This document shows, piece by piece, positions 12,672-32,069 of a stretch of DNA of 64,000 nucleotides. Every line of letters starts with the position of its first letter. Within the stretch, counting starts at the first letter, position 1. Position numbers and translations under genes: made by a program. The DNA comes from Azolla caroliniana (lineage: Eukaryota > Plantae > Polypodiophyta): the NCBI GenBank assembly GCA_043228905.1, contig JBHGNT010000002.1:8680001-8744000 (forward strand). Direction: 5' to 3'. The notes below the pieces were generated by a model. It saw only the letters and a program-made list of their open reading frames with translations. It did no database searches and had not been told where the DNA came from.

Positions 12672-14255
12672 CATGTATGATTGTGTGCATATAATTGAAA
12701 ATGTGTCTAATCCCAACCTTAACCCTAGATTCTTTAGCGATGTTGTTAAGTAACACATGTTATGTTTTATGTGTCCTTTAGCAATGCCTTTTTGGAAACC
12801 AAAGATACATTGCTATGTGAAGTATTTGTTGTAGTAATTGACAAATTGACAAAATGGTTAACACGTATTGGGTGATATTTTCCATCATAGTATTCTAGAT
12901 TGTCAAATTATGAAAATGGAACAACTTGGTGAAGAGATCATGTCTTTATGATGCTCAAACTTCCACAAAGTAGGCCATAGAAGTCAAGCAAACCTTTTAT
13001 TAAGGTGTCATATCAAGGCCAATTGATTTCAACAACCATACTAAACAATTCAATATACATTGAACATTAGCTAGAAATATGTTGGAGCAATAATCCATGG
13101 GTATAGAAATTTATGGGCTAGCACATGAAAGTGAGACAAAGTGATAAGAAGAAAGTTTGCACATACACAAACCAACCAAGCTTAGGAGAAGAGGGTGATA
13201 AAGATGCATTCTTGAATTGTACATGTCATAGATAACTTTATTGCCTACTTTCATGACGAGTTGCAAAATCATGAAGACGCCTAGGCCCTAGACTCCTCAT
13301 TCTAAATTTTTGATATTACATATTTTGGGATGTTATGTTTTATTTTGACCTAATTGTGCAAAAAAGTGAGGTGCCTTGTGGGATATTATTTTATGTACTC
13401 ATCTTAGAAGCTAGATCACCATGAATTGTAACAACCTAGGTGAATGGTACTCATCTTAGAAACTCAATCACCATGTATTGTAACATTTCAAGTTAGAGCT
13501 GAAGTTGAGAGTTTGGTTGAAGGAAGTTATTATAAGCCCATAATAAATATCTTACTATATGTAGAATAAATTTGGAGATGGTTTATAAGCATGAAATGCG
13601 TATTTGAGCTACAAGTCAAGACTGAACTAAGTATTCGAGAGACATTGGTACAAGGAAATGAACCTATAAAAAAGCTTAATAGATGCATCTTAATGTCCTG
13701 GACCAGAATGAACACGGTGTGCAATTATCTCCATGATCCTGTAATGGTATAGTTCATCTACTTGATATTGGCAGTCTTTAATGTCGATAAATTTCCTTTG
13801 CTTGCTCCATGGTGATTCCTTGGAAACAAACCAGTGATGTCTAATTGTCGTTGCATCTTGCATGCTAGGATAAGAATCAATTATTTATGCTTTAGAAGCT
13901 TGAGCAAAATTTGGCTAAACTATGGTGGGCGAGCCTTATCAAAAGGAGGGTGGTTGGTGGAGATAGGAGTCGGAATGGAGGATGGCACGTTCAATTTCCA
14001 AATCGTGGGGTCAGTAGTAATGGAAAAAGAAATCATTAATTCTCTAGTCACGATGGTCAAGGTTTTCTCGCCTTTCTCAATGTTTTGTCGATGACTCTTT
14101 GACCCACGACAGATTTTTGTCAAATGAGGACATTATTGGAAGGCCTCGACCATTTTTTATATCTGTTGCTGTTGGTCGGTTTCCTCTCCAAAATTTCCAC
14201 CTCTTCATTCCCCTCCATCCTGTGGAACATATGCAAACTAGCGCAGCAACACCCG

Positions 14256-16946
14256 ATGATGAACCTCCGATGCACTCTCCATCTATTCTCAATCCTTATT
14301 GTGACCATAAATTCAGCAATGGCTGCGATGGTTATGGCGCTCCCTCCCTCTTTTGACATGGCGGTAGTGCAAGCCCAAGCCCAAGCTCTCATAGCAATCA
14401 AGGATGCCATCACCGATGACCCCACTTCTTGCCTATCCTCCTGGACCACCACCTCCACCTCCACCTCCACCTCCTCCAACTCTACTAGTAGTCATGTGGC
14501 GGCACCACCCTCCTACTGCCCCTCCAATGGCACTGCTGGCTGGTTCGGCCTGCTCTGTGATAACCGCTTCCACATTACCTCCCTCAACCTCTCCTCCTGC
14601 AGCCTCTCTGGCTCCATCTCCCCTTCCCTAGGTCTCCTCCCTTCCCTTTCTCTTCTCGATCTCTCCTACAACCACTTCTCAGGACCCCTCTCTCCCTCCC
14701 TCTTCACCAAACAACCCAACTCCTCCCTCACCTACATCGACCTCAGCTACAACGCCCTCCTCTCTGGTCACATTCCCCGTTCCCTCATCCTCAACTCCCC
14801 CAACCTCCAAACCCTGCGCCTTATCGACACTGGCCTCAGCGGTGTTGTTCCTCCAGAGTTGTGGACCCATCTCCCGACTCTTCAGCACCTCTATATCTCC
14901 GACACCTGGTCTGACTCCTCGCCTCCCCTTCTCAGCATCTTGCCCACCTCTTTTCCCCCCACTGCTAATTTCGCTTTCTGTGCTACCATTCAGGTGTTTG
15001 AACTAGATAGCCTTGATGCATCCGGGTCATCGTTTCCCTCTTCCTTGGGAGATTGCCAACAGTTGCAGATCTTGTCCTTGACTGTCGCGGGTCTACAAGG
15101 CTCCATCGCCCCATCCATTTGGCAGCTTCCTCATCTCCAGAAACTGTATATCGTAGATGTTAATGTGATGGAGACTATATATAATCATCCCGATCAGCCA
15201 CCTCCTCCCTACAAGCTCCAGGGGTCACTGCCATCCACTCTAGGTTTCTGTGGGGCGGCTGGATCTACCATCGAAGATATGTACATAGCTGGCATAAATC
15301 TCACTGGCCACATTCCTGTTTCTATAGGCACCTGTGCCTCTTTGCAGAGTCTGGAGGTCACTCAAACAAGCCTGGAAGGCCCCATGCCTTCTAGCCTCGG
15401 GAACCTCACCCAGCTACAGGTGCTGGCTTTCCACAGCAACAACCTGGAAGGCCCCATGCCTTCTAGCCTCGGGAACCTCACCCAGCTACGGTTCTTGGCT
15501 CTCCAGAGCAACAAATTCTCAGGCCCTATCCCTTCTAGCCTCGGGAACCTCGCCCAACTACTGTTCTTGGCTCTCTTCTTCAACAACTTCTCAGGCCCCA
15601 TCCCTTCTAGCCTCGGGAACCTCACTCAGCTGCAGATCTTGCATCTTGAGAGCAACAACCTCGAGGGATCCATCCCTTGTAGCCTCGGGAACCTCACCAA
15701 ACTACTGGACTTGCATCTCGACAGCAACAAGCTGACAGGAAAGATACCAGCTGCACTCGGCAGCTGCTCACTACTCACCGAGCTCCGATTAGGGTTCAAC
15801 ACTCTCAGCGGTTCCATCCCCAGTGAGCTGGGAATGCTCATAAAACTCGAGGAACTATCTCTATTTACAAACAACCTCGAAGGGATTGTCCCTGTTGACG
15901 CTTTACATAATCTGACGGCTCTTAATGTCTTACGCCTCTTTCAAAACAATTTGACTGGGAAGATAGAGAGTTTGGATCTTTCCAAGTTGCCCAATCTCGA
16001 GAGGTTTAGTGTCTTCGAAAATGCTTTAGAAGGGGGCGTGCCTGCTGGCCTAACAGAGAGTAAGGCACTGATCATCTTTGATGTGCAAAGGAATAAATAT
16101 CTCACCGGATCCTTAGGCAATACTGCTACTCCTCACATCACGGGTTTATCCAATCTCAGGGTGCTCTCGGTGAGCTACAACCAGCTAAGTGGAGACATCC
16201 CTGGTTGGGTTTGGAAGCTTCCCAGTCTGCAGGCCTTGGACCTCTCCAATAATCACTTCAGCGGCTGCTTCCCTGCGTCTCTCACGTACCTCTCCTACTT
16301 CAAGCGGAATCAAACCTCAGACAGGAACCAGACCACACTCTACGAGGATGTGCCGGTCACGATTAAGAACACTATCTTCACTCTTAAATATATTCTGAGT
16401 GCACGCATCTACATTGATGTGTCCATGAACGATCTGGAAGGCGAAATTCCGGAGAGCTTCGGGGAGCTGCAAGGTCTGACAGGAGCCAACCTATCCCACA
16501 ACAGCATTAGCGGCAGAATACCTGCGGCAACATTCGGGAGATTGATGCAGTTGGAGGTGTTGGACCTGTCCTACAACCAGCTCAGCGGTAGCATCCCACA
16601 AGATCTCACGTCTTTGGACAGCCTCTCTACTCTAAGCCTCGCCCACAACCAACTGGAAGGACCCATTCCCACACTGAACAACTTCGATACCAGGTTCACG
16701 TCTGCCAGCTTCGAGAACAACCGGGGGCTGTATGGCTGCCCTCTTTCCTCCTGCAACAACAATGCGAGTAGTAGTGATCTGGGCAGCACAAGCACAAGCA
16801 TAGGCGGGCAAACGCAACAACGATTATTGAGTGTGATTTGGTTTCGTGAGGTAGTATGTCCATGGGGACTTCTAGTAGGCTATCCGGTTGGGCTTGCACT
16901 TGGCATATTCCTCTGCCCTCCCCCCTTCTCCTTAAAATTGAAGTGA
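14256..16946 (+). CDS. Intronless leucine-rich-repeat receptor-like protein (LRR-RLP), about 896 aa; the ORF is open from 14124
   Basis: Signal-like hydrophobic N-terminus, LRRNT cap (ALIAIK..LSSW..C..WFGLLC), many plant LxxLxxLxLxxNxLxGxIP repeats, island segment, C3 LRRs, FENNRGLYGCPL cap, GxxxG-containing TM helix (WGLLVGYPVGLALGIFL), short tail, no kinase. Confidence 0.93.
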   Translation: MMNLRCTLHLFSILIVTINSAMAAMVMALPPSFDMAVVQAQAQALIAIKDAITDDPTSCLSSWTTTSTSTSTSSNSTSSHVAAPPSYCPSNGTAGWFGLLCDNRFHITSLNLSSCSLSGSISPSLGLLPSLSLLDLSYNHFSGPLSPSLFTKQPNSSLTYIDLSYNALLSGHIPRSLILNSPNLQTLRLIDTGLSGVVPPELWTHLPTLQHLYISDTWSDSSPPLLSILPTSFPPTANFAFCATIQVFELDSLDASGSSFPSSLGDCQQLQILSLTVAGLQGSIAPSIWQLPHLQKLYIVDVNVMETIYNHPDQPPPPYKLQGSLPSTLGFCGAAGSTIEDMYIAGINLTGHIPVSIGTCASLQSLEVTQTSLEGPMPSSLGNLTQLQVLAFHSNNLEGPMPSSLGNLTQLRFLALQSNKFSGPIPSSLGNLAQLLFLALFFNNFSGPIPSSLGNLTQLQILHLESNNLEGSIPCSLGNLTKLLDLHLDSNKLTGKIPAALGSCSLLTELRLGFNTLSGSIPSELGMLIKLEELSLFTNNLEGIVPVDALHNLTALNVLRLFQNNLTGKIESLDLSKLPNLERFSVFENALEGGVPAGLTESKALIIFDVQRNKYLTGSLGNTATPHITGLSNLRVLSVSYNQLSGDIPGWVWKLPSLQALDLSNNHFSGCFPASLTYLSYFKRNQTSDRNQTTLYEDVPVTIKNTIFTLKYILSARIYIDVSMNDLEGEIPESFGELQGLTGANLSHNSISGRIPAATFGRLMQLEVLDLSYNQLSGSIPQDLTSLDSLSTLSLAHNQLEGPIPTLNNFDTRFTSASFENNRGLYGCPLSSCNNNASSSDLGSTSTSIGGQTQQRLLSVIWFREVVCPWGLLVGYPVGLALGIFLCPPPFSLKLK

Positions 16947-17685: not shown

Positions 17686-18660
17686 TTAGATTAAATTTAG
17701 GAAGTTGCAATCTATATCTTCTATGAAGTCCTTGATGTCATCATCATGTTCATGAGAAGTTCTTGTAAAAATATGACGATATGCCTTGCTTTCTCGCCAC
17801 AACATAATGCTAGCACTGAAGTCATGTTCTTCTTGTTTAGGTCCTTCAATAGAGATTCGTATTAATGTATCAATCACATTGCTTTTTAGCCTATTTTTGA
17901 ACTTAATATTTATTAGATTTAGGCGACTAAAGCCTCTCTCACATGCTGCAATAGAAGAACATTGAATTTACCGTATCAATCAAAGCCAAGCAACTTTTTT
18001 TCCACACATCATTACAATTTATCATACCCCAAACATCTAAGAAATCTCTTCGAAGCCATTTCGTGGTAGCTTGGCGTTTGAAAATTGCATATTCATCATA
18101 TAGTTTATCATTATCAATTATGAGAGAAAATGTTTTCCCATCTATCATTTTTTGAATGCCATAAAAATTTCCAAGTGTTTTCAACTCATTAAGACCCATA
18201 GTCTCTCGTGCTAAAATGTTTATAGATCCAGTAAACATGTTCATTGGTGATATCATCTTCAATGTGGAAAGAGTCACTAGATCTTGAAGCCTCTTTTATA
18301 GTCTCTATTAATGCTCTAGAAAACAATGTTTGGAAAAGTATGGCTTCAATTAAGTCATCATCGTCAATACTTCTATCCATGATAATTCTTTTATACATAT
18401 TACCTTCTGTGGCATCTCGTAAAACAGAAAACATTCCTTTTTCTCTACCATATTCTGGAATAATTGGATAATTATTGTTATCCTTCTCAAAACCATTAAG
18501 ATAAATAATAACATGATGTAGAAATTGCTCTTCTATCTCCCCAATGGCTATCATAGCCAAACCTCCAATTCATGTCACATCCACATTTTCATTTTGGAAT
18601 TCCATACTTAATGTAGACATGATCTTAAGTACATTGTGAAAGTGTCTTTAGAATTCAAGC
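17686..18660 (-). pseudogene. hAT-superfamily (ZNF862-like) transposase C-terminal/dimerization remnant
   Basis: Minus strand reads ERGFSRLNLI..KNRL..IDTLIRISIEGP around 17850-17945, typical of the hAT dimerization domain. Frameshifted and cut at about 18680 by an LTR. Confidence 0.7.
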
Positions 18661-19170: not shown

Positions 19171-19912
19171 TTTTACTGACAATTTGTTTTGTTGTTTTGA
19201 TATTTTTTGCGTGTGAGCGATGGGGATCTAACAAGGCTCGTCATGCTCTTCTCAGGATCAAAACAACACTCTAAACCCGGTATTCTTCTTTCTCGATCTC
19301 TCTTCTTTCTATGCTGCGTTCTTTTTGGTGGAATCAAATTTGTATTACGTTTTCTTTTCTTTTCTTTCTTCTTTCTACCACGATACGATTTTAATTATTA
19401 TTGTGCATCAAGCCGAGCGTGTTTGCACTAATCGCACACGCTCAACTCATGGCCTTTTGCATATTGCGATGTATCTCCCACTCTCCTCTCTCTTGAGCCT
19501 TCTCTTACGATATTAATTATTGTTGTGCATTGGGTCGAGCGTGTTTTTTCCTTAATCGCACACACTCACTTGATGGCCCTTTTGCATATGATGTTGAGGA
19601 TGCTACTCTTCCCAATTGAGCCATCATTTGGCCAATTCTCTGGGATGTTGTGGCCATGACAAGGTGTATGTTGCCTACCTATACCACTCTACTCTCTATT
19701 GAGCCATCACTTGGTCGATTCTAGGGATATGTGGTGGTCTTAAGGAGGTGCATGTCGACTACCCTAGGGTTCTTAGCTTAAGGCATGCTTAATGTTCCAT
19801 ACACCTAATTGATTATTATTCTAATTAATTTCTAATTACACAAATTGTCGTTTCATTTTTGTATGATTTTCTCGTAATTGTGATTTACCCACCCACGATT
19901 AACTCTCCTTTT

Positions 19913-19937
19913 GGGTAAAAGCATGCGAGTGGAAACA
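19913..19937 (+). repeat. Left TIR
   Basis: GGGTAAAAGCATGCGAGTGGAAACA. Confidence 0.93.
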
Positions 19938-20163
19938 CTATTATAGCTAATTAGCTAGTAAAATGGCCATAGCTAATTAGCTATTTGTTTAGCTAGTCTT
20001 TCTTGTGGGAAAATCAAATATTTGAAAAACTAATTTATGAAAAAACTCAAATATTTGAACTTCTGTTTCAGACGTAGTGGAACTTGGGGAATATCACCAT
20101 CATCTAAGGTCGACTTCAATGTCATCAATTTCCTGTTTAGCCTAAGTCTGATTTTGAACGCAG

Positions 20164-23100
20164 ATGGAGTACTCAGAGCACGAACGCAGACGTAGCTCCC
20201 GCAACAGCAAAAAATCGACATTGCAGATTGAGAGCTACAACACAGAACCCGCTCGATCATCGTCCAGGTATGTTTCAGTTACAGAAACCCCAAACATTTG
20301 TTTTTTCTTTTTGACTACTGTCTGAACTTTGGTGCCGATTCATATTTCCCCAAAATCGAATAGGGCGAAGTCCTTGGAGTCCCATACAAGGATGTCTCGC
20401 AAATCGGGGAGTAGCAACAGGTGTGTTTATATTACTTTTTTTGTGTTTAATCCTGTCTTTAGTGATTAGGGTTTGTGATTGAAATGTCTGATTAGGGTTT
20501 GTGATTGAAATTTCTGATTAGGGTTTTTGATTATAAATTTCTGATTAGAATTTTTGAATAGGGTTTCTGGTTACAAATTTTGATTACAAATTAGAATTTC
20601 TGAATAGGGTTTTTGTTTATAAATTTCTGCTTAGGATTTCTGATTAGGGTTTGTGATTGAAATTTTTTATTAGGGTTTCTGATTGAAATTTCTGATTAGG
20701 GTTTTTGATTATAAATTTCTGATTAGAATTTCTGAATAAGGTTTCTGGTTACAAACTTCTGATTACAGATTTTGATTAGGGTTTCTGATTTCAAACTTCT
20801 GATTACAGATTTTGATTAGGTTAAGTTAAAGATTTTGCACCATTTTTGTTGTTGTTGATTGGGGTTTTTGATTCTCACATATTCTGATTTTGCACTATTT
20901 CTGATTTCTGAAATGATATTTCAGATGGCTCGTTCCTCCGTATACGAGAGTGCTAAACTTCGCAAAATTTTGCGAGACAAAGGAGGACTTCCACAACACC
21001 TATGGTCTGTCACTCGAGGGTGTTGACCCTGCTGTCCTAAGTGATAAATTGATCAGTGATATAGACTGGATGACAGTATATACAGTGCCTAGAGTCAAAG
21101 GCAAGGTCAAGCTGAAGCATGTACGAGCCGACTTGTACGATGACTGCATGAGACTGCACCAGAAAGTTCATCAGGAGATCCCAGTCAACAATGAGTTGTC
21201 AGTTTCATTTGCTAGAGCATTTGCATATGAGTACTGCAAAACAGCGAAGGAATCTAGAGACCCTGAAATGTATAGGGTAGCTTGGGCAGTCTATGGTGAG
21301 GCATCGGTAAAAAGATGCCGAAAGATGGGGACCTTGGCACAAAAAATAGACAGATTTTGGAGCATGGCAGCTGTTGATGCAACTGCCGACTCCCAGCAAG
21401 ACCGGGGGCATACACCACACCGACACCCAAGGAAAGCCAATGTCGATGATACAGGTGAGACATTGGTTAGCTATATGCTAAAAAATGTCCATGAAGCCTG
21501 TGAGACATTGGCATTTTTTAAGACTGATTTAGAGAAAGCCACAATGGCTTCTGCAATGGAGAGCAAAGTTACTTCTGCTGTTACAACAATTAGAAATAAG
21601 ATTCAGGTAACTATTGTTTTGCTGGTATGTGATTGTGTTATAAATAACGGGTAAAATGTGCTAATCAAGCATTATCTGGAATAGGTTGCGCAACAGGAGC
21701 TTGAATTAGAGGGGCCACTGGATCCCCAGCGTAAAATAGAACTGCAAATAGAGATCCAGGTTCTTTCAATGAACCTGGACCTTCTAGGTGTAAATACTGT
21801 TGCAGATTACAATTTGGATAAGCTTCAAGTAAGTTAACGATTCCTGAGCAAAGTTGGTGTATCTTTCAACAACAAGAATAATTAATCGGTAAATTTCTCT
21901 GTTGCGTTGAAGGAACAATACATTCATCAAGAACAGGTAGTTAGCTGCCTTAAGAAGAAGCTACATTTTGTGGAGGGAATGGTAAGGACCAGACAGGATT
22001 TGGACCTGAACATTCTTGCTCCCTTACCAAATGAAGTAGAACCAGAAAATGATTTATTGACAGTTCAAGCACGTTGCATCGCTTGCGGGTTAGGTGTGGA
22101 GGACAAAACTGTGTCTTTGTTGGTTCACCTACAACCATGCAACCACACATACCATCTGCTTTGTTTTCAACATGCCTGTCGAATTGCTGCATTCTGTTTG
22201 GGAGATTGCAGTACAACTCTACCAAATGAGTGGAGAAAACAAACAGGTATACCATACTGTAGCTAATAAGCTTAGTCTTTTCTAATTAGCTATCCTACTA
22301 GCTAATTAGCTACTGGCAGCTAATGAGCTACTAGCTAATTAGCTATCCTAGTAGCTAATTAGCTATGGTACTAGCTAATTAGCTAGTACCATAGTTGTGT
22401 AAAAAAGCTAAATAGCTATCCTACTAGCTAATTAGCCACTGGCAACTAATTAGCTATCCTAGTAACTAATTAGCTACTGCCATAGTTGTGTAAAGTAGCT
22501 AATAAGCTATCCTAGTAGCTAGTTAGCTATGGTACTAGCTAATTAGCTAGTACCATAGTTGTGTAAAAAAGCTAATTAGCTATCCTACTAGCTAATTAGC
22601 TACTGGCAACTAATTAGCTATCCTACTAGCTAATTAGCTATCCTACTAGCTAATTAGCTATCATAGTAGCTAATTAGCTACTGACATACTTGTGTAAAGT
22701 AGCTAATAAGCTATCCTAGTAGCTAGTTAGCTATGGTACTAGCTAATTAGCTAGTACCATAGTTGTGTAAAAAAGCTAATTAGCTATCCTACTAGCTAAT
22801 TAGCTACTGACATAGTTGTGTAAAGTACCTAATAAGCTATCCTAGTAGCTAATTAGCTACTGGCAGCTAATTAGCTATCCTAGTAGCTAATTAGCTACTG
22901 GCAGCTATTTAGCTGTCCTAGTAGCTAATAAGCTATCCTAGCTACTACATAGTTGAGAAAGTAGCTAATTAGCTTTCATTGTAGCTAATTAGCTATCCTA
23001 GCTACCACCATAGTTAATAAAGTAGCTAATTAGCTATCCTAGCTACTACCATAGTTAGTAAAGTAGCTAATTAGCTATCCTAGCTACTACCATAGTTGAG

Positions 23101-24885
23101 TAAAGTAGCTAATTAGCTACCATAGTAGCTAATTAGCTATCCTAGCTACTACTATAGTTGTGTAAAGTAGCTAATAAGCTATCCTACTAGCTAATCAGCT
23201 ACTGGCAGCTAATTAGCTGTCCTAGTAGGTAATAAGCTATCCTAGCTACTACATAGTTGAGAAAGTAGCTAATTAGCTTTCATTGTAGCTAATTAGCTAT
23301 CCTAGCTACCACCATAGTTAATAAAGTAGCTAATTAGCTATCCTAGCTACTACCATAGTTAGTAAAGTAGCTAATTAGCTATCCTAGCTACTACCATAGT
23401 TGAGTAAAGTAGCTAATTAGCTACCATAGTAGCTAATTAGCTATCCTAGTTACTACTATAGTTGTGTAAAGTAGCTAATAAGCTATCCTACTAGCTAATT
23501 AGCTATCCCAGTAGGTAATTAGCTATCGTACTAGCTAATTAGCTAGTACTATAGTTGTGTAAAGTAGCTAATTAGCTATCCTACTAGCTAATTAGCTACT
23601 ACCATAGTTGAGTAAAGTACCTAATTCGCTATCCTACTAGCTAATTAGCTACTGGCAACTAATTAGCTATCCTAGTAGCTAATTAGCCACTGGCAACTAA
23701 TTAGCTATCCTAGTAACTAATTAGCTACTGCCATAGTTGTGTAAAGTAGCTAATAAGCTATCCTAGTAGCTAATAAGCTACTAGCAGCTAATTAGCTATC
23801 CTAGTAGCTAATTAGCTATCCTACTAGCTAATTAGCTACTACCATAGTTGAGTAAAGTAGCTAATTAGCTATCCTACTAGCTAATTAGCTACTACCATAG
23901 TTGAGTAAAGTACCTAATTAGCTATCCTACTAGCTAATTAGCTACTGGCAACTAATTAGCTATCCTAGTAGCTAATTAGCTATCCTAGTAGCTAATTAGC
24001 TGCTGGCAACTAATTAGCTATCCTACTAGCGAATTAGCTATCCTAGTAGCTAATTAGCTACTGGCAGCTAATTAGCTATCCTAGTAGCTAATTAGCTATC
24101 CTAGTAGCTAATTAGCTACTGGCAGCTAATTAGCTGTCCTAGTAGCTAATAAGCTATCCTAACTACTACCATAGTTGAGTAAAGTACCTAATTAGCTATC
24201 CTAACTACTACCATAGTTGAGTAAAGTACCTAATTAGCTATCATACTAGCTAATTAGCTATCGTACTAGCTAATTAGCTATCCTAGCTTCTACCATAGTT
24301 TAGTAAAGTAGCTAATTAGCTATCCTAAATAACTGTCATGTTATTGTAGAATCTTGTGGATTAAGGACGGCACATGATGTGTCTGGTGCTGATGATGCTG
24401 CAACAGATGAGGATACTACTGCCAATGTGGCTGAAAGTAAGAGTCCTGCTATCACATCTCCTTCAGATCAGCTGCACCCTATTCTTTTGGAACAGTGTAC
24501 TGAATTAGGCAACGATGTGAAATGCCATGAAATAGTGGAAACAACATGTAAAACTGAGGTTCACAACAACAGTGTTTATGAACACTTGATGCAACATTTC
24601 TTCGAGTCTCAAGACCTTGATTCCACCCCACCGAGCCCAACTACTGAAAATGTCCAAACAGATCCCTCTGTACTTGAAAAGCTAGTTCAAGAAACGGCTG
24701 ATGTGCAATTAGCTGCTGAGGCGATGGGAAGGTTGTCGGAGGAGGACACACTTGCGCATTGGGTCCTAGAAGCAAGGCTAAATGGGGAACCAACCAGAAA
24801 AAGGCTGAAGAAGGGGCCACGATCGGGAACAAGACCAGTTACTCGGTCAAGGGGCCCAGACGTAGTGGAGCGAAATACTGTTTAG
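20164..24885 (+). CDS. Transposon cargo gene A: predicted 6-exon, 618-aa protein with a RING-H2-like zinc finger and an acidic/basic tail
   Basis: Exons 20164-20267, 20364-20420, 20925-21606, 21685-21828, 21913-22246, 24350-24885. All introns are GT-AG and phase-consistent; total 1857 nt with no internal stop. RING-like CIAC-x17-CNHTYHLLC..C..C in exon 5. Confidence 0.7.
20461..20830 (+). repeat. 13/26-bp tandem array rich in telo-box TTAGGGTTT, inside predicted intron 2 of gene A
   Basis: Recurring GATTAGGGTTTGTGATTGAAATTTCT and variants. Confidence 0.85.
22255..24327. repeat. Palindromic TAGCTAATTAGCTA satellite I (fills predicted intron 5 of gene A)
   Basis: Dozens of 14-bp palindromes with short variable spacers; higher-order duplication of about 304 bp (22921 vs 23225). 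Confidence 0.95.
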
Positions 24886-25134
24886 TTGGATATGATTGTT
24901 AGCTTAGGGATTTTGCTAGGGTTTTATGAAGTTTTACTATCCTGTTGGACAAGTAAAACCTCAGATTGGTTGTTGCTTGATCCACATTATGTAATGGAAC
25001 TCTATGATGTTTTTCCAAGATAATTTGAAGAGTGTTATTCTATGACTGAAACTCTTTGATGTTCAGGATATTGTTTTGTGAGACTAGTAGTTACTTTGTG
25101 AGTGTGAATATGTTGGTGTTTTCTGATGTTGCAG

Positions 25135-26189
25135 AGTCTAAAGGGTTTGATTCTATTGCTCGTAAGGCCAATGGCAGTGTGGATACTGTTGATGTTGCGG
25201 CATGTTTAAAGGGCCCCATCTTGAAAGTAGATGTAGCAACTGACACAAGTGATCTGGTCACACAAGTTGATCAAGCATGTAGCACGGATGACTTGGTGTT
25301 GCAGGTAGATGCAGCATGTAGCACGGATGACTTGGTGTTGCAGGTAGATGCAGCATGTAGCACGGATGACTTGGTGTTGCAGGTAGATGCAGCATGTGAT
25401 ACCAGTGGATTGATATCGAGCAGAACAGTAGCTACATGCACTGAGGTAATCCAAGGATTGATAACTAAGTCGACAAAACAAGAGCACCAGAATGTGAAGC
25501 TAGGCCCAACACAGTCGACTAGGGGTTTAAAGAGGAAAAGGACACCAGTTGTGTCAACCGAACCTGAGCTGATTGAGATTGATCGTATCCTACCAGAAAA
25601 TGGTGTAACAGCGGCTCAGTTTCAGGAATGGAAACCTAAACCACTAGAAGTCGAGCGAAGAGCCTTGATCTTGGAGCTGGATAAAGTCTTGATGAGTGTG
25701 AGATATATGCAGCCAAGGAGGGACGCAAATCAGTTTCTAGAGTGGGCTGCGGAGCACTTCGATTTGTTTATTTGGAGTGAAAAACCAAAATCAGATGTGT
25801 GGAAGTGTTTGGCAAGATTCTTCCCAAAATGGCGAAGTCGTTTTAAAGGTCAATGGGCACGAGAAAATTGTGAGCAGATGGAAGCTGCAAGATTCAAGAG
25901 GCTTTCTGATTTTTGGGCTACTTGGCCTGAATATAATGCTGACAATACATTGATTTTGGATACAGAACATTTCCGACACTACTTCAATATTCGGAGATGC
26001 TGTCTCATTCTACCCGAGGAAATGCCTGAACAGTACCTGGTGCAAACAGTGAGCTGCCAACTAGGTGCATGGTTGTGGACTCCATACCGAGCTCAATATG
26101 CGGATAATATATGTAGACTCGTTCCACTGACTAGCAAGAGCTTAGCTGTTTATAGGAGATTTGTAGACATTGCCAATGGTAATTTATAA
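25135..26189 (+). CDS. Cargo exon/ORF: 13-aa repeats plus an FCP1/NIF (HAD-like, UBLCP1-type) domain with degenerate catalytic motifs
   Basis: LILELDKVL (in place of DxDxT), RRDANQFLEW..FDLFIWS, KRLSDFW..YNADNTLILDT follow the NIF domain pattern. Phase-1 acceptor TTGCAG ends at 25134. The ORF is open from 25056. Confidence 0.65.
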
Positions 26190-26319
26190 ATATGTAAAGA
26201 GATGACATTATTCAATGAAGAATTTAATTACTTGTTCCCACTGTACTTATCTACTGTGTAATTTGAGGAATATGTTGCAGATTGTTGATTTCATTCTATT
26301 GATGACTATTTAGCTATTG

Positions 26320-26826
26320 ACAGCTAATTAGCTGCATTTGTACAGCTAATTAGCTACTGATGACTATTTCGCTATAACTTATAACTTAAAACTTAACAAA
26401 AAAGACATGATTTTATTGAGAAAGAAGCACAGAAAGCAGACTGTATACAAGAAATTGATTCCAAACGAATTTATTGATCTGTTTTCACGAAATACATGTT
26501 TGTTTTACAAGAGAACATGGTAAGTGCTACTTGTAGCTACAAATTCCATGGCATACTATTGTAAATACATTTGTACAGCTAATTAGCTGCATTTGTACAG
26601 CTAATTAGCTACTGATGACTATTTCGCTATAACTTATAACTTAAAACTTAACAAAAAAGACATGATTTTATTGAGAAAGAAGCACAGAAAGCAGACTGTA
26701 TACAAGAAATTGATTCCAAACGAATTTATTGATCTGTTTTCGCGAAATACATGTTTGTTTTACAAGAGAACATGGTAAGTGCTACTTGTAGCTACAAATT
26801 CCATGGCATACTATTGTAAATACATT
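26320..26826. repeat. 255-bp tandem duplication covering the transposase 3' end
   Basis: 26341 matches 26596 onward nearly perfectly. Includes a second copy of the last codons (CIYNSMPWNL*). Confidence 0.92.
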
Positions 26827-29800
26827 CATACACATTAGCACCAACAGTGTATAAACCGGAGCAGCTATTGTATTCTGACATTGGGACGTTGATGCATCTG
26901 ACCAAATGAGAGTACATATACGCCGCTGGTTTGTCTTCTAACAGCCTGTACACATATTCGTAGTCATCTAGTTTTGCATAAAAAATGCCTTCGATGTAGA
27001 ATGTCCCGGCAGATACAAAATTTCCCCATGCATCTACAATATTCTGCCTTGCACACTGTTTACTAACCGTGCACTTTAATATATAGAAATCAGCACCCTC
27101 TGAATTGCCTTCTTCAGCATTTACAGCGAAGTTATCCCCAACGTTCAGGACATCACTCAAAGTATCTCCAAGTCCCTCATATGTGAAGTCAGCATTCTGC
27201 CCTGTTTCTCCATCAACTGCTTCCTTATCATTCAGAGTGTGATACTCCCAATTCTGAATGTATGCTTTGTTTAGACAATATCTCCAATTTCCCTGCACAC
27301 AATGGAAGCAAAAACAAGTCAATTCTCTAACCGCAATACAATGACCATCCAACCTGGAATAACCGCGAACAGCATGCAGAGATCGCAATTCGGGAATTCC
27401 TTGGCACTCCCAGGTCTTCTCCCTATTTACTTCATCTATCTTCACTTCCCAAAATTCACGTTTGATATCTCGAACTTGCGAGGAATAAACACCTGTGGCA
27501 CTCGTCGACATATTTGTTCTTAAAAATTCAACTACATGTGATGCACAATTCATGTGCACACCATCTGTCTTTAGTTGTTCATGGGTAAGTGCCCGCTTTA
27601 TAACAGCCCCTGCACCATCATGTTCACCTTTACCATGGCCAGACCCAAAAAAATTCCATCTCATCTCCAAACCTGTTATAGCAGGATACCTCCCCACAAA
27701 ATAAAATGGACGTCGAGCCTTGAATTGTGACGCAGCTCCGTCAGACCAGACCCAATGTTGAGTAAGCTCCAAACGTTGAGCTAATAACCACTGCCAATGT
27801 AACTTAAAACAGTGTTGGACGAACAAGGTATCATGCTTCTTATCATCGGAAATAAAGAAATGAATTACTTTTTTAACATCACCTGAAACTCGAAAATATG
27901 TTATGTGCACAAAAATGGTTACTTGAACTGAACACCAATGCATAGATTGAATTTCATTCTGCTGCTTGAAAGTATAATTCTCTGCGAAATCTACTACTGA
28001 GACTACTACATCATTTGGGAAATCAGATATGCAAGTCTTAAACTGATGGGCCTGCCATGAATAAATGAAGTTGTGTTTAATGAACTTTCCTAGAGATACT
28101 ACAAACAGAGACACCAAATCCCTTGGTTTAAGCATCTTCCGAACTAGATCCTTTCTTTTACACACCTTTCCTTCGAAATTGGTGTTCACTGACTCAAATA
28201 ACTTCACAGAGATCAATATTTCACTACTCAATTCATTTGGACACCACCTAAATCTAGTAGGGCCACAATCTTGACATAAACCCATGACACATTTATGAAT
28301 ATGGAAGATAGCGTCAGATTCTCTCGGACACAATATTGAATCTAATAAATAACTCATGGAAGAGATAACGTGCTCAGATGATTTACACTCCTCTTGCGGG
28401 CTTGATCGACAGATTTGGCACCCACATGTGCAAACTGTATTAGTTAGGGATGCGCTATGGTGACGTAGTAGATTAACAGAGTCCTTCAGAAAACCCATCT
28501 GTACATGGTAAATGCAACAACATGTGTATCGATCCTTTAAGCGTCTCACAAAGTGTGGCTTAAGAGACTCGAATGTTCGTAGTTGAACTTTGATAGTTGG
28601 ATGCATTCGTTTGAACCTAATAAATAAATCGACCTGCGTAATAAAGGGGAATTAGTTATTCTCGTAACTAGCTAACTATCCTAGTAGCTAATTAGCTATT
28701 CTAGTAGCTAGTTAGCTATTCTAGTAGCTAGTTAGCTATTCTAGTAGCTAGTTAGCTATTCTAGTAGCTAATTAGCTATCATGGTAGCTAATTAGTTGTC
28801 CTAGTAGCTAATTAGCTATCATGGTAGTTAATTAGCTGTCGTAGTAGCTAATTAGCTATCATGGTAGCTAATTAGCTATTCTAGTAGCCAATTAGCTATC
28901 ATGGTAGCTAATTAGCTGTCGTAGTAGCTAATTAGCTATCATGGTAGCTAATTAGCTGTCCTAGTAGCTAATTGGTTGTCCTAGTAGCTAATTAGCTATC
29001 ATGGTAGCTAATTAGCTGTCGTAGTAGCTAATTAGCTATCATGGTAGCTAATTAGCTGTCGTAGTAGCTAATTAGCTATCATGGTAGCTAATTAGCTATT
29101 CTAGTAGCTAATTAGCTATTCTAGTAGCTAATTAGCTATTCTAGTAGCTAATTAGCTATCATGGTAGCTAATTAGCTGTCGTAGTAGCTAATTAGCTACC
29201 ATGGTAGCTAATTAGCTGTCCTAGTAGCTAATTAGTTGTCCTAGTAGTTAATTAGCTATCATGGTGGCTAATTAGCTTGTCTACTAGCTAATTAGCTATC
29301 ATGGTGGCTAATTAGCTTTCCTAGTAACTAATTAGCTATCATGGTAGCTAATTAGCTGGTCTAGTAGCTAATTAGCTATCGTGGTAGCTAATTAGCTGGT
29401 CTAGTAGCTAATTAGCTATAATGGTGGCTGATTAGCTTTCCTAGTAACTAATTAGCTATCATGGTAGCTAATTAGCTGGTATAGTAGCTAATTAGCTATC
29501 ATGGTAGCTAATTAGCTGGTATAGTAGCTAATTAGCTATCATGGTAGCTAATTAGCTATCACGGTGGCTAATTAGCTGTCCTAGTAACTAATTAGCTATC
29601 ATGGTAGCTAATTAGCTGGTCTAGTAGCTAATTAGTTATAATGGTGGCTAATTAGCTATCCTAACTAATTAGCTATCATGGTAGTAGCTATTGAGAGTAG
29701 CCAGTTACCTATGTAGTAGCTATCATAGTAGCTAATTAGCTATCATGGTAGCTAATTAGCTTTCCTAGTAGCTAATTAGCTGGTAATAACGAAATAGCTA

Positions 29801-30618
29801 ACTAGCTACCATGATAGCTAACTAGCTAGCAGTACAGCTAATTACCATGTTGAGATAAATGTAAATACCTGAGGTACATCAAGAAGATGAATGGGATGCT
29901 CCTCGTATTGATTTCTTCCAACACGTTTCCTGCATAAATCCTTTTTATTGGGTGAAACCCTACTCTCATTAGTCCAAAACATTGTGATTACATCCTTGAT
30001 TTCAAATGTTATGGGTGTCATTGGCTTACATCTTGTAGTTAGCTTTAGTAGACTAGTTCCTTCACCCGAGGAAATTATACGGTTCATTGTATTGTACACT
30101 GTTTTTCTACTAACACCAATTACCTTAGATAGCTCACTGATGTTTATATCGTCAACATCACTATTAAGTAACATCATTAGACTAGACCTTTTTAAGACAA
30201 GATCATCTTCTGACCTGCTCATGGATACGAAACTATTACGAAGATTATTTACTAAAATAGATGATATGTTTGCATTAAGACCATCACAATCAACTAAGTC
30301 CTTTATCGATGGATCATTACATATTCCATAAAGTACTACCTTCTTTTCTTCATTGCTGATGTGCTTGGTTTGAACATTGAAATAGTCTACAACCTTTCTC
30401 TCTATGATGGTAGTCGCATTACTTACATTCTCAGCTAAACTATCCTTACCTTTACTGAGTGTGGCTTTCGTATCCTTCAACAATTGACGATGTTTCCTTT
30501 TTTTTTCTGCCCAATAGTTTCGTATGGCTTGTTGTGTCCTGATAACATCATCCCTATCCTTATGATCATTGAGGGGTAATTCTAAACACCCTTCTTCCCC
30601 TTCCATTTGGCTAGACAT
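26792..30618 (-). CDS. Sola2-like DDD transposase, 2 exons (30618-29869 and 28633-26792), 863 aa, intact
   Basis: Exon 1 has an HTH (ISELSKVIGVSRKTVYN). The phase-0 intron CAG|GTATTT..TACGCAG|GTC joins LLDVPQ to VDLFIRFKRMHP..FESLKP. A Cys-rich region follows, then VDFAENY, SDGAASQFK and FFGSGHGKGEHDGAG catalytic motifs. Confidence 0.88.
28665..29842. repeat. Palindromic TAGCTAATTAGCTA satellite II, 20-bp register with 40-bp dimers (fills the transposase intron)
   Basis: CTAGTAGCTAATTAGCTATC / ATGGTAGCTAATTAGCTGTC units lie within intron 28634-29868. Confidence 0.95.
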
Positions 30619-30914
30619 GTTAAAACCCTAAATTTCCAGAAAAAAAAACAAGTATTAAAGATGGCTATGGGCAACAACAATACACAAAAATATTCCACAC
30701 AATACACAAGATTAGACACAACAATACACAAGATAATCAATAGACAGAAAAGTTATTGCAATCCAAGACCGAACAGTAGAGGATTTCACTCTGTTGGATC
30801 CAACAGTTGAGGAGACGATCCAAGACCGACCAATGGCAACAACTGAGTGTAGAATGTTGCCGTTGGATGAGTGAACTCCGTCAAATCGAAATGTGGAAGC
30901 AATCCGGGACTGGA

Positions 30915-31605
30915 CAGTAGTGGCAACTGAGTATAGAATGATGGCAATGGAGGAGAGAACCCCGTCAGATTGAACAGTTACCGATGATGCTTGAAACGCA
31001 CATAGAAGGCACTTGAGAATAGAGTGGCATAGAGAAGAGAACCCCGTCAGATTGAACAGTTACCAATGATGCTTGAAACGCACAGTAGCGGCCCCTGAGT
31101 GAGAGTGGAAAAGAGAAGAGAACCCCGTCAGATTGAACAGTTACCAATGATGCTTGAAACGCACAGTAGCGGCCCCTGAGTGAGAGTGGAAAAGAGAAGA
31201 GAACCCCGTCAGATTGAATAGCTCTTTGATTATGCTTGGAACGCACAGTAGCAACCCCTGAGTGTAGAGTGGCAAAGAGAAGAGAACCCCGTCAGATTGA
31301 ACAGCTCTTTGATGATGCTTGGAACGCACAACAGCGGCCCCTGAGTGTAGAGTGGCACAGAGAAGAGAACCCCCTCAGATTGAACAGCTCTTTGATGATG
31401 CTTGGAACGCACAGTAATGGCCCCTGAGTGTAGAGTGGCAAAGAGAAGAGAACCCCGTCAGATTGAACAGCTCTTTGATGATGCTTGGAATGCACAGTAG
31501 TGGCCCCTGAGTGTAGAGTGTCACAGAGAAGAGAACCCCGTCAGATTGAGCAGCTCTTTGATGATGCTTGGAACGCACAGTAGCAGCCCCTCAGTGTAGA
31601 GTGGC
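30915..31605. repeat. 81-83-bp tandem repeat, about 8 copies, upstream of the transposase
   Basis: GAACCCC(G/C)TCAGATTGA starts at 30957, 31039, 31120, 31201, 31284, 31367, 31450 and 31533. Confidence 0.93.
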
Positions 31606-31933
31606 GGCAGGTGGACTCGATAGGGTTTAGCAACAGTGGTAGCAACTAACCCACAGTACTCAACTAGAGATGGCCTACGTGATGTGGCAAAGGATCATGC
31701 ATAATGGACCTAGGAATTCGATATATAATTTATGGTACACATTTATGGTGCACACATCAATTTATGTTGCACATTTATGGCACTCATTTACATATGTAAT
31801 TAAAACACTCTAGTATTTTCAATGGTAGTTTTTTGCATACTTAATTTATTAATGATGGCTTTTTACTAAAATGACTATTTATCAATGGTAGCTTTTTGCA
31901 TAGCTAATTAGCTATGTCAAGGACATAGCTAAT

Positions 31934-31958
31934 TGTTTCCACTCGCATGCTTTCACCC
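31934..31958 (-). repeat. Right TIR
   Basis: TGTTTCCACTCGCATGCTTTCACCC, the reverse complement of the left TIR with one mismatch. Confidence 0.93.
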
Positions 31959-32069
31959 TTTTCCCCCTTTCTTTTCATGTTTAAATTAACCCACACACAA
32001 GCTGAGATCACTATTGAGCAATTGCTCAGTACTACCTTGAATCAATTGGCCGAAATGAGGTAGGCCAAT

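What the first reader, a model, noticed from the sequence alone, without database searches (positions are those of the whole stretch)
25135..26189. FCP1/NIF-like pseudophosphatase as a possible alternative last exon of the RING gene
Seen: a NIF/HAD-like domain in which the DxDx(T/V) nucleophile reads ELDKV and the motif-IV DD reads DT. The acceptor at 25134 is phase 1, the same phase as the RING-exon donor at 22246 and the acceptor at 24349. Established: FCP/SCP/UBLCP1 phosphatases need the first Asp and act on phospho-Ser substrates such as the Pol II CTD. Inference: mutually exclusive terminal exons could give RING+acidic tail or RING+catalytically dead phospho-reader, i.e. a transposon-encoded phospho-targeted ubiquitin ligase or decoy.
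Basis: partly seen in the sequence, partly recalled or inferred. Interest (0 to 1): 0.7.

Follow-up and report, generated by a model that had tools for sequence, protein, structure and literature searches.

The report
Fern transposon's switchable dead-phosphatase tail
An intact jumping gene, likely from a fern, carries a second gene whose zinc-finger protein likely ends in either an acidic tail or a conserved, predicted-dead phosphatase domain, and would use these tails to regulate the element itself; no RNA was available to test the switch.

Summary
25135-26189 encodes a NIF/FCP1-fold domain (Pfam above cut-off; SCP1 Z 16.3) reading ELDKV and DT, behind a phase-1 acceptor. It lies in the second gene of an intact 12,046-bp Sola2-like transposon. 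E is kept in 30 of 30 close copies covering motif I, and the domain is under purifying selection (dN/dS 0.30). Two Adiantum gene models also join RING to NIF, so RING+NIF is likely the family's usual form, not a separate gene. The acidic exon is also selected (dN/dS about 0.5) and has its own stop, so two last exons are likely (65%). Three corrections. (1) A missed phase-1 donor (A|GTAAGA, after 24436) inside the acidic exon gives a junction at least as likely as 22246/25135. (2) The nearest relatives are DxN-type NIF proteins, already non-canonical, not SCP/FCP1 enzymes. (3) The E-lineage also lost about 23 residues of the insertion after motif I, which weakens a Pol II CTD reader, and the RING lacks the usual E2-contact residues. 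No RNA was found. Likely role: swappable effector tail of a self-regulator.

The parts
19909..19912 (.). left target-site duplication TTTT
19913..19937 (+). left terminal inverted repeat (24 of 25 bases match the right one)
20164..20267 (+). accessory gene, predicted exon 1 (ATG; phase-2 donor CAG|GTATGT)
   Evidence: predicted from splice signals, no homologue support
20925..21606 (+). predicted exon 2: conserved N-domain of unknown fold, then start of a helical region
   Evidence: 38% over 124 aa to P0061; no Pfam hit; low-confidence model
21685..21828 (+). predicted exon 3 (helical, likely coiled coil); donor CAA|GTAAGT
21913..22246 (+). predicted exon 4: RING-H2-like zinc finger C-x2-C-x17-C-x-H-x2-H-x2-C-x10-C-x3-C; phase-1 donor
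22282..24328 (.). intronic array of the palindrome AGCTAATTAGCT
24350..24885 (+). last exon A: acidic tail, basic RKRLKK patch, own stop
   Evidence: open in window, L001 and L002; dN/dS 0.46-0.50 3' of the internal donor
24434..24442 (+). candidate internal phase-1 donor AAA|GTAAGA (last exon base 24436)
   Evidence: GTAAGA kept in L001 and L002; chance of such a site 15-27%
24886..25134 (+). non-coding T-rich gap: 3' UTR of isoform A and 3' end of the intron of isoform B; TGTAA at 24990
   Evidence: 5 of 7 indels against L001 are not multiples of 3; 42% T
25135..26189 (+). last exon B: acidic linker with 39-bp repeats, KRKR patch, NIF/FCP1-fold pseudo-phosphatase, stop
25674..25688 (+). motif I, ELDKV in place of DxDx(T/V)
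25959..25964 (+). motif IV, DT
26792..28633 (-). transposase exon 2 with Sola2-type motifs DFAENY, SDGAASQFK, HGKG
28650..29781 (.). second palindrome array, in the transposase intron
29869..30618 (-). transposase exon 1 (weak HTH hits); both exons open, 863 aa together
31934..31958 (-). right terminal inverted repeat
31959..31962 (.). right target-site duplication TTTT

Best explanation
The NIF-fold ORF is a conserved, predicted-dead phosphatase domain that likely forms one of two alternative last exons of the accessory gene of a Sola2-like transposon, likely of a fern, whose product would act as a nuclear self-regulator of the element. The shared part is N-domain, helical region and RING-like finger (exons 1-4). 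Early 3' end formation after the stop at 24885 would give a 599-aa RING+acidic-tail protein. Splicing on to 25135 would give RING+pseudo-phosphatase, more likely through the internal donor at 24436 (801 aa; about 55%) than by skipping from 22246 (772 aa; about 35%). The domain likely came from the DxN-type NIF subfamily, then lost the nucleophile and the substrate insertion, and now likely serves as a protein-docking module, like yeast Tim50's non-catalytic core, that may still grip a phosphate through its kept Ser, Lys and Asp. Shown: fold, motif loss, its conservation, selection on both exons, open frames, element ends. Inferred: all junctions, nuclear location, capture from a host gene, self-regulation. 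Odds: NIF belongs to the RING gene 0.85; both last exons used 0.65; self-regulator role 0.35.
For: Pfam NIF above cut-off; SCP1 Z 16.3. dN/dS 0.30 over 209 codons, Fisher p 2e-9 against L001; third-position excess p 0.002. Exon A 3' of the donor: dN/dS 0.50 and 0.46, p 0.003 and 0.001; its one indel is 3 nt. All three splice forms are open. P0061 (A. nelumboides model) shares N-domain, RING and NIF in the same order; P0086 shares RING and NIF. Among 73 homologue rows, motif-I position 3 is N in 44 and D-x-D occurs in 3. The E-lineage is one clade (10 rows, 7 showing E, 3 lacking the site; SH-aLRT 99) that includes two Ceratopteris models. Motif I to the FLxW helix is 20 aa in the window against a median of 43 in 49 D/N-first rows. 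Motif II S/T in 26 of 28 and motif III K in 27 of 28 rows of A1. All 91 of 91 window copies of AGCTAATTAGCT lie inside the element. Intron 3 of the same model also uses an A|GTAAG donor.
Against: No junction is seen in RNA. The 24436 donor could be chance (27% of codon shuffles give a phase-1 site scoring 5 of 7, 15% a GTAAG). The third-position test for exon A is weaker (p 0.018 and 0.076), and L001 and L002 are identical in exon B, so selection rests on about one independent comparison. P0061 and P0086 are automated gene models whose DNA context I did not see, so they are not shown to be in transposons; P0061 has no match to exon A, which favours a direct RING-to-NIF junction as the older form. 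An in-frame ATG 25 nt upstream of the acceptor is kept in close copies and L003. The N-domain has no family or fold assignment, so DNA binding is unsupported beyond the arrays. The tree is a quick, midpoint-rooted tree, so the donor of the domain is not established.
Confidence: 0.5

Rival explanations
1. One reading: exon A is skipped whole (22246/25135), and the NIF domain is a phospho-peptide reader that aims a RING ubiquitin ligase at phosphorylated host proteins such as the Pol II CTD.
For: Phases fit and the frame is open. P0061 joins RING to the NIF exon with nothing like exon A. Phosphate-binding Ser and Lys and the first motif-IV Asp are kept. Eight RING-H2 ligands are present. KRKR patch before the domain.
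Against: The insertion after motif I is about 23 aa shorter than in relatives; in Scp1 that insertion may assist substrate recognition (PMC3215212, passages). RING scores 12-14 bits against cut-offs of 27-31 and lacks the Ile, Trp, Pro and Arg E2-contact hallmarks (recalled) in the window, P0061 and P0086. A competing internal donor exists.
Confidence: 0.15
2. One constitutive product: the gene always splices 22246/24350 and 24436/25135 (801 aa), and the 150-codon read-through of exon A is a relic or minor intron-retention form.
For: Best donor in exon A, in phase, kept in L001 and L002; RING+NIF is the order in both Adiantum models.
Against: The read-through part shows dN/dS 0.46-0.50, a single 3-nt indel and a stop at nearly the same place in three copies, while the following gap has 5 of 7 frame-breaking indels; its 3' end is also recognisable in L003.
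Confidence: 0.15
3. The NIF ORF is a separate third gene starting at the ATG near 25110, and the RING gene always ends in exon A.
For: In-frame ATG kept in close copies and in L003; exon A is a complete last exon.
Against: Only 249 nt separate the stop of exon A from the acceptor, which leaves little room for a 3' end and a promoter; the acceptor AG and a branch-point-like CTGAT/TTGAC are kept in L001-L003; two Adiantum models join RING and NIF.
Confidence: 0.12
4. The domain is still an enzyme with shifted chemistry: Glu as nucleophile or metal ligand with the Asp at +2, acting on a small or nucleic-acid phosphate.
For: E, D(+2), S, K and D(IV) are all kept under selection; some non-canonical phosphatases keep activity (PMC13216928, passages).
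Against: The first Asp is the phosphoryl acceptor and its change to Ala or Asn abolishes Scp1 activity (PMC3215212, passages); I recall D96E also being used as a dead Scp1 form, but two searches found no paper. The Ceratopteris-type relative P0043 reads EVEVF, so the +2 Asp is not fixed in the clade.
Confidence: 0.08

Closest known systems
DxN-type NIF-domain pseudophosphatases (fungal 'HAD-type NIF', DXNXT; PMC13216928, passages read) and plant 'FCP1-like domain' genes (P0098/P0115 Morus, P0110 Oldenlandia)
   Same: Nearest non-fern relatives by sequence and tree; PF03031; W-S, K, NTL..D motifs.
   Different: Here motif I is ELD, the insertion is about 23 aa shorter, and the domain is the last exon of a transposon gene behind a RING-like finger.
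SCP1/FCP1/UBLCP1/CTDNEP1 phosphatases (FCPH domain)
   Same: Same fold (Z 13.9-16.3); motif II Ser, motif III Lys and first motif IV Asp kept.
   Different: No first Asp, no T/V, short insertion; 14-19% identity only.
Yeast Tim50 core
   Same: NIF fold (Z 15.1) used without phosphatase activity in S. cerevisiae (PMC13216928, passages).
   Different: Mitochondrial import receptor with a host function; not transposon-borne.
Sola2 DNA transposons (PMC3627910: passages and Additional file 10 read in full)
   Same: Transposase motifs by eye, short TIRs, AT-rich 4-bp TSD; Sola2 elements are known to carry a cargo gene (Fanzor1).
   Different: Cargo here is a spliced RING + pseudo-phosphatase gene, convergent with the transposase, with palindrome arrays in introns of both genes.
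Spm TnpA and VANDAL VANC accessory regulators (bioRxiv 10.64898/2026.08.24.746577, passages; PMC5735166, abstract and outline)
   Same: Plant DNA transposon with a second gene and element-specific repeated motifs; alternative splicing of transposon genes is known for Spm.
   Different: No sequence or fold link found; TnpA has tandem HTH domains derived from the transposase, whereas here the alternative parts are C-terminal tails of the accessory gene.

Membership tests
NIF/FCPH domain (PF03031) | Pfam score above the curated cut-off | tested here: met
   31.3-32.9 bits against 21.8
NIF/FCPH domain (PF03031) | FCP/SCP-type HAD fold | tested here: met
   model pLDDT 88.7; SCP1 Z 16.3, rmsd 2.5, 144 aligned; Foldseek top rows all FCPH-fold
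Active FCP1/SCP/UBLCP1 phosphatases | DxDx(T/V) with the first Asp as phosphoryl acceptor | tested here: not met
   ELDKV in the window; ELDKV 26, ELDKI 1, EVDKV 1 of 28 rows of A1, window included
Active FCP1/SCP/UBLCP1 phosphatases | motif II Ser/Thr, motif III Lys, motif IV Asp | tested here: met
   S/T 26 of 28, K 27 of 28, first D 27 of 28; second motif IV position is T, and Scp1 itself reads DN there (recalled)
Active FCP1/SCP/UBLCP1 phosphatases | insertion domain directly after the signature motif | tested here: not met
   20 aa from motif I to the FLxW helix against a median of 43 in 49 D/N-first relatives, 8 of which are also short (19-24); measured against homologues, not against the Scp1 sequence
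Active FCP1/SCP/UBLCP1 phosphatases | Mg-dependent phosphatase activity | not testable with these tools
   needs an assay
DxN-type NIF pseudophosphatases | DxN motif I | tested here: not met
   window reads ELD; N at that position in 44 of 73 homologue rows. A derived relative, not a member by motif
Sola2 transposons | transposase motifs DF(A/S)ENY, SDG..QYK/FK, HGK...DG..G and upstream CxCxxH | tested here: met
   by eye against Additional file 10 of PMC3627910; no profile score; no Pfam hit for exon 2
Sola2 transposons | 4-bp AT-rich TSD and short TIRs | tested here: met
   TTTT on both sides, TIR 24 of 25; feature from PMC3627910 passage. One insertion only; TTTT could be extended by chance
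RING-H2 ubiquitin ligases | eight ligands in C3H2C3 spacing | tested here: met
   pattern; P0086 also complete, P0061 lacks the first Cys
RING-H2 ubiquitin ligases | Pfam RING score above cut-off | tested here: inconclusive
   12-14 bits against 27-31
RING-H2 ubiquitin ligases | E2-contact Ile, Trp, Pro and linchpin Arg (recalled) | tested here: not met
   CIAC, CFQHA, CLGDCS in the window; also absent in P0061 and P0086
Alternative last exons | two downstream exons, each coding, in phase, with own stop | tested here: met
Alternative last exons | both 3' ends and junctions seen in RNA | tested here: inconclusive
   no RNA holder listed; nothing laid from the two guessed RNA runs
TnpA/VANC-like self-regulators | repeated motif confined to the element | tested here: met
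   91 of 91 window copies inside 19913-31958; the transposase is an equally possible binder
TnpA/VANC-like self-regulators | sequence-specific DNA-binding domain and activation of cognate copies | tested here: inconclusive
   N-domain model pLDDT 49.7, no Foldseek match; function needs experiments

The most novel reading that the evidence does not exclude
The transposon encodes a two-state regulator: a poly(A)/splice choice swaps an acidic activation tail for a dead phosphatase that traps a phosphorylated host protein and delivers it to the RING finger on the element's palindrome arrays, i.e. a transposon-borne, phospho-guided ubiquitin ligase or decoy against host silencing.
Probability: 0.12. 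Interest if true: 0.8.

Novelty: new variant of a known kind. Interest (0 to 1): 0.45.

Why it matters
Known plant transposon regulators (TnpA, VANC) are DNA-binding factors. A family that carries a NIF pseudo-enzyme behind a RING-like finger, keeps it under selection while stripping its nucleophile and substrate insertion, and may swap it for an acidic tail would add a new kind of effector and a natural series (DxN to ELD) for studying what dead HAD domains do. I found no report in four searches; the library lacks most subscription journals and Repbase, and the original Sola paper could not be read. The interest depends on RNA and binding data that do not exist yet.

Tried and rejected
No whole genome is held, so copy number and empty sites were not checked. 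RNA: no RNA holder listed. Three runs were laid on 24340-26320 and 20850-22280. X2 and X3 (guessed RNA) laid nothing. X1 (kind unknown) crosses predicted introns unspliced and shows no GT-AG joint other than loss of two 39-bp repeats, so it is read as DNA. None of this bears on expression. Searches for longer proteins found nothing with the NIF alignment (708-2020 aa) or the N-domain (416-2000 aa); both missed the known P0061, so they are weak. No relative in viral or prokaryote collections. ESM Atlas gave no usable hit for P0061 or its N-domain. The N-domain model was low-confidence with no fold match. A duplication origin of the starts of exons A and B (both begin ES.G) was not supported: 24 of 500 shuffles reached the score. 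TGTAA after both stops is kept in L001-L003, but the flanks are 77% identical, so it is a weak hint only. Searches for Scp1 D96E and plant FCP-like lists found nothing; three look-ups for the Sola paper by recalled ids failed. Earlier-finding searches by sequence and by words were blank. No complex prediction was run.

Full report
Setting. The ORF lies inside a 12,046-bp element (19913-31958) with inverted ends matching at 24 of 25 bases and TTTT on both sides. A two-exon transposase on the minus strand is open for 863 aa. Its motifs match, by eye, the Sola2 alignment in Additional file 10 of PMC3627910, read in full, and that paper gives 4-bp AT-rich TSDs for Sola2 (passage). Named relatives of the NIF domain come from Adiantum and Ceratopteris, so the host is likely a fern; Sola elements are reported in Azolla (PMC6786969, one passage). 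The palindrome AGCTAATTAGCT occurs 91 times in the window, all inside the element, mostly in one intron of each gene.

Observation. Pfam NIF is hit above its cut-off. The model built on 15 sequences has pLDDT 88.7 and matches SCP1 (Z 16.3, rmsd 2.5, 144 aligned), UBLCP1, Tim50, CTDNEP1 and Fcp1 ahead of other HAD proteins. ELDKV, DT and the three phase-1 sites are as described.

Is the change kept? Four clusters with 52 members were found, 40 listed. I aligned 27 of the 40 with the window: E at motif I in 28 of 28 rows. Of the 13 short fragments left out, 3 cover motif I and read ELDKV. Some of these records may be the window's own sample. Against the diverged copy L001 (66% identity) the NIF region has dN/dS 0.30 over 209 codons (p 2e-9), and differences favour third positions (60 of 131, p 0.002; that DNA alignment held one 2-nt gap not seen at protein level). 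Transversions outnumber transitions, so transition bias does not explain the low ratio. The dead-looking domain is therefore maintained. L003 and L004 are decayed copies with frameshifts.

Origin. A search of cluster representatives gave 72 proteins. Among 73 rows (these plus P0004), motif I position 1 is D 47, E 10, N 2, S 1, gap 13; position 3 is N 44 and D 12; D-x-D occurs in 3. The nearest kin are thus DxN proteins, a type called a pseudophosphatase in fungi (PMC13216928, passages). A quick IQ-TREE tree of 63 rows (11 dropped for under 70% cover; SH-aLRT only; midpoint root) puts the window in a 10-row clade (99) with two Ceratopteris models, inside a 29-row set (99) that holds all seven named fern models and excludes the Morus and Oldenlandia genes. 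The E-lineage has 20 residues between motif I and the next helix against a median of 43 in 49 D/N-first rows, 8 of which are also short. In Scp1 the insertion after the signature motif may assist substrate recognition, and the first Asp is the phosphoryl acceptor (PMC3215212, passages). Motif II Ser, motif III Lys and the first motif IV Asp remain. So catalysis is unlikely, a phosphate grip is possible, and Scp1-style CTD reading is weakened. Capture from a host gene is inferred, not tested with a rooted tree.

Does it belong to the RING gene? P0061, an A. nelumboides model, shares the N-domain (38% over 124 aa), the RING (30%) and the NIF domain in the same order. P0086, a second such model, has RING, an acidic linker and NIF. 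They read DLNGV and DLQGV. These are automated models, and I did not see their DNA. A four-exon core (20164-22246) can be drawn with GT-AG sites and joins in frame to exon A (599 aa), to exon B directly (772 aa), or to exon B through a donor after 24436 (801 aa).

Is exon A a true last exon? Its 140 codons 3' of the internal donor show dN/dS 0.50 and 0.46 against L001 and L002 (p 0.003, 0.001), with weaker third-position tests (p 0.018, 0.076), one 3-nt indel, and a stop at nearly the same place; the 249-nt gap that follows has 5 of 7 frame-breaking indels. Both exons are therefore likely translated, and since exon A has a stop the RING can reach NIF only by an alternative route. The donor AAA|GTAAGA is the best of 29 GT sites in exon A, is kept in L001 and L002 and is of the same A|GTAAG type as the donor of intron 3, but 15-27% of codon shuffles give such a site. 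P0061 has nothing like exon A, which favours a direct junction as the older form. From general knowledge, alternative donors and intron retention are commoner in plants than exon skipping. I put 55% on 24436/25135 and 35% on 22246/25135; both may occur. No RNA could be brought to bear.

RING. Eight ligands are present in RING-H2 spacing, but Pfam scores are 12-14 bits against cut-offs of 27-31, and the usual E2-contact residues (recalled) are missing in all three copies seen. Ligase activity is open; I put it near one in three.

Mechanism. The most likely reading is a nuclear accessory protein of the transposon (basic patches in both last exons) with a conserved N-domain, a helical region, a zinc finger and two exchangeable tails, acting on the element's own arrays in the manner of TnpA or VANC (bioRxiv 10.64898/2026.08.24.746577, passages; PMC5735166, abstract and outline). 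The acidic tail would activate; the pseudo-phosphatase would dock a host protein. Every functional step is inferred, and the N-domain could not be assigned a fold. Supplements of the bioRxiv preprint, which survey accessory domains of other superfamilies, were not seen and could list similar cargo.

Novelty. Four literature searches found no report of a RING/NIF cargo in Sola or fern transposons. Verdict: real and conserved, a new variant of transposon accessory genes; the switch is likely but unproven, and the ligase/reader idea is the less likely reading. Interest 0.45.

Noticed in passing
window 24608-24875, run X1: Many more diverged contigs cover the 3' part of exon A than exon B, and two contigs leave the window at 24855 into a stop followed by AGCTAATT-like sequence. 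Related subfamilies may end in exon A without the NIF exon directly behind.
   Followed up: no
window 25098-25103: A donor-like GTGAGT 37 nt upstream of the exon B acceptor is kept in the window, L001, L002 and L003; too close to form an intron with 25134, and could be a U1 site that affects the upstream poly(A) choice.
   Followed up: no
window 26320-26826: A near-perfect 255-bp tandem duplication between the convergent 3' ends of the two genes.
   Followed up: no
window 25274-25397: A 39-bp in-frame repeat (3.2 copies) in the exon B linker; copy number varies among relatives.
   Followed up: partly
window 30914-31605: An 83-bp tandem array (8.3 copies, 90% alike) upstream of the transposase start.
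   Followed up: no
L003 1392-1430: A sequence like this element's left end (GGGTGAAAGCATG...GGAAAC) lies about 110 nt after the decayed NIF ORF, so a related element is inserted or adjacent there.
   Followed up: no
window 14103-16946: Intronless 947-aa LRR receptor-like protein ORF about 3 kb left of the element.
   Followed up: no
window 17686-18569 (-): Fragments that look like a decayed hAT-type transposase (by eye; no Pfam hit).
   Followed up: no
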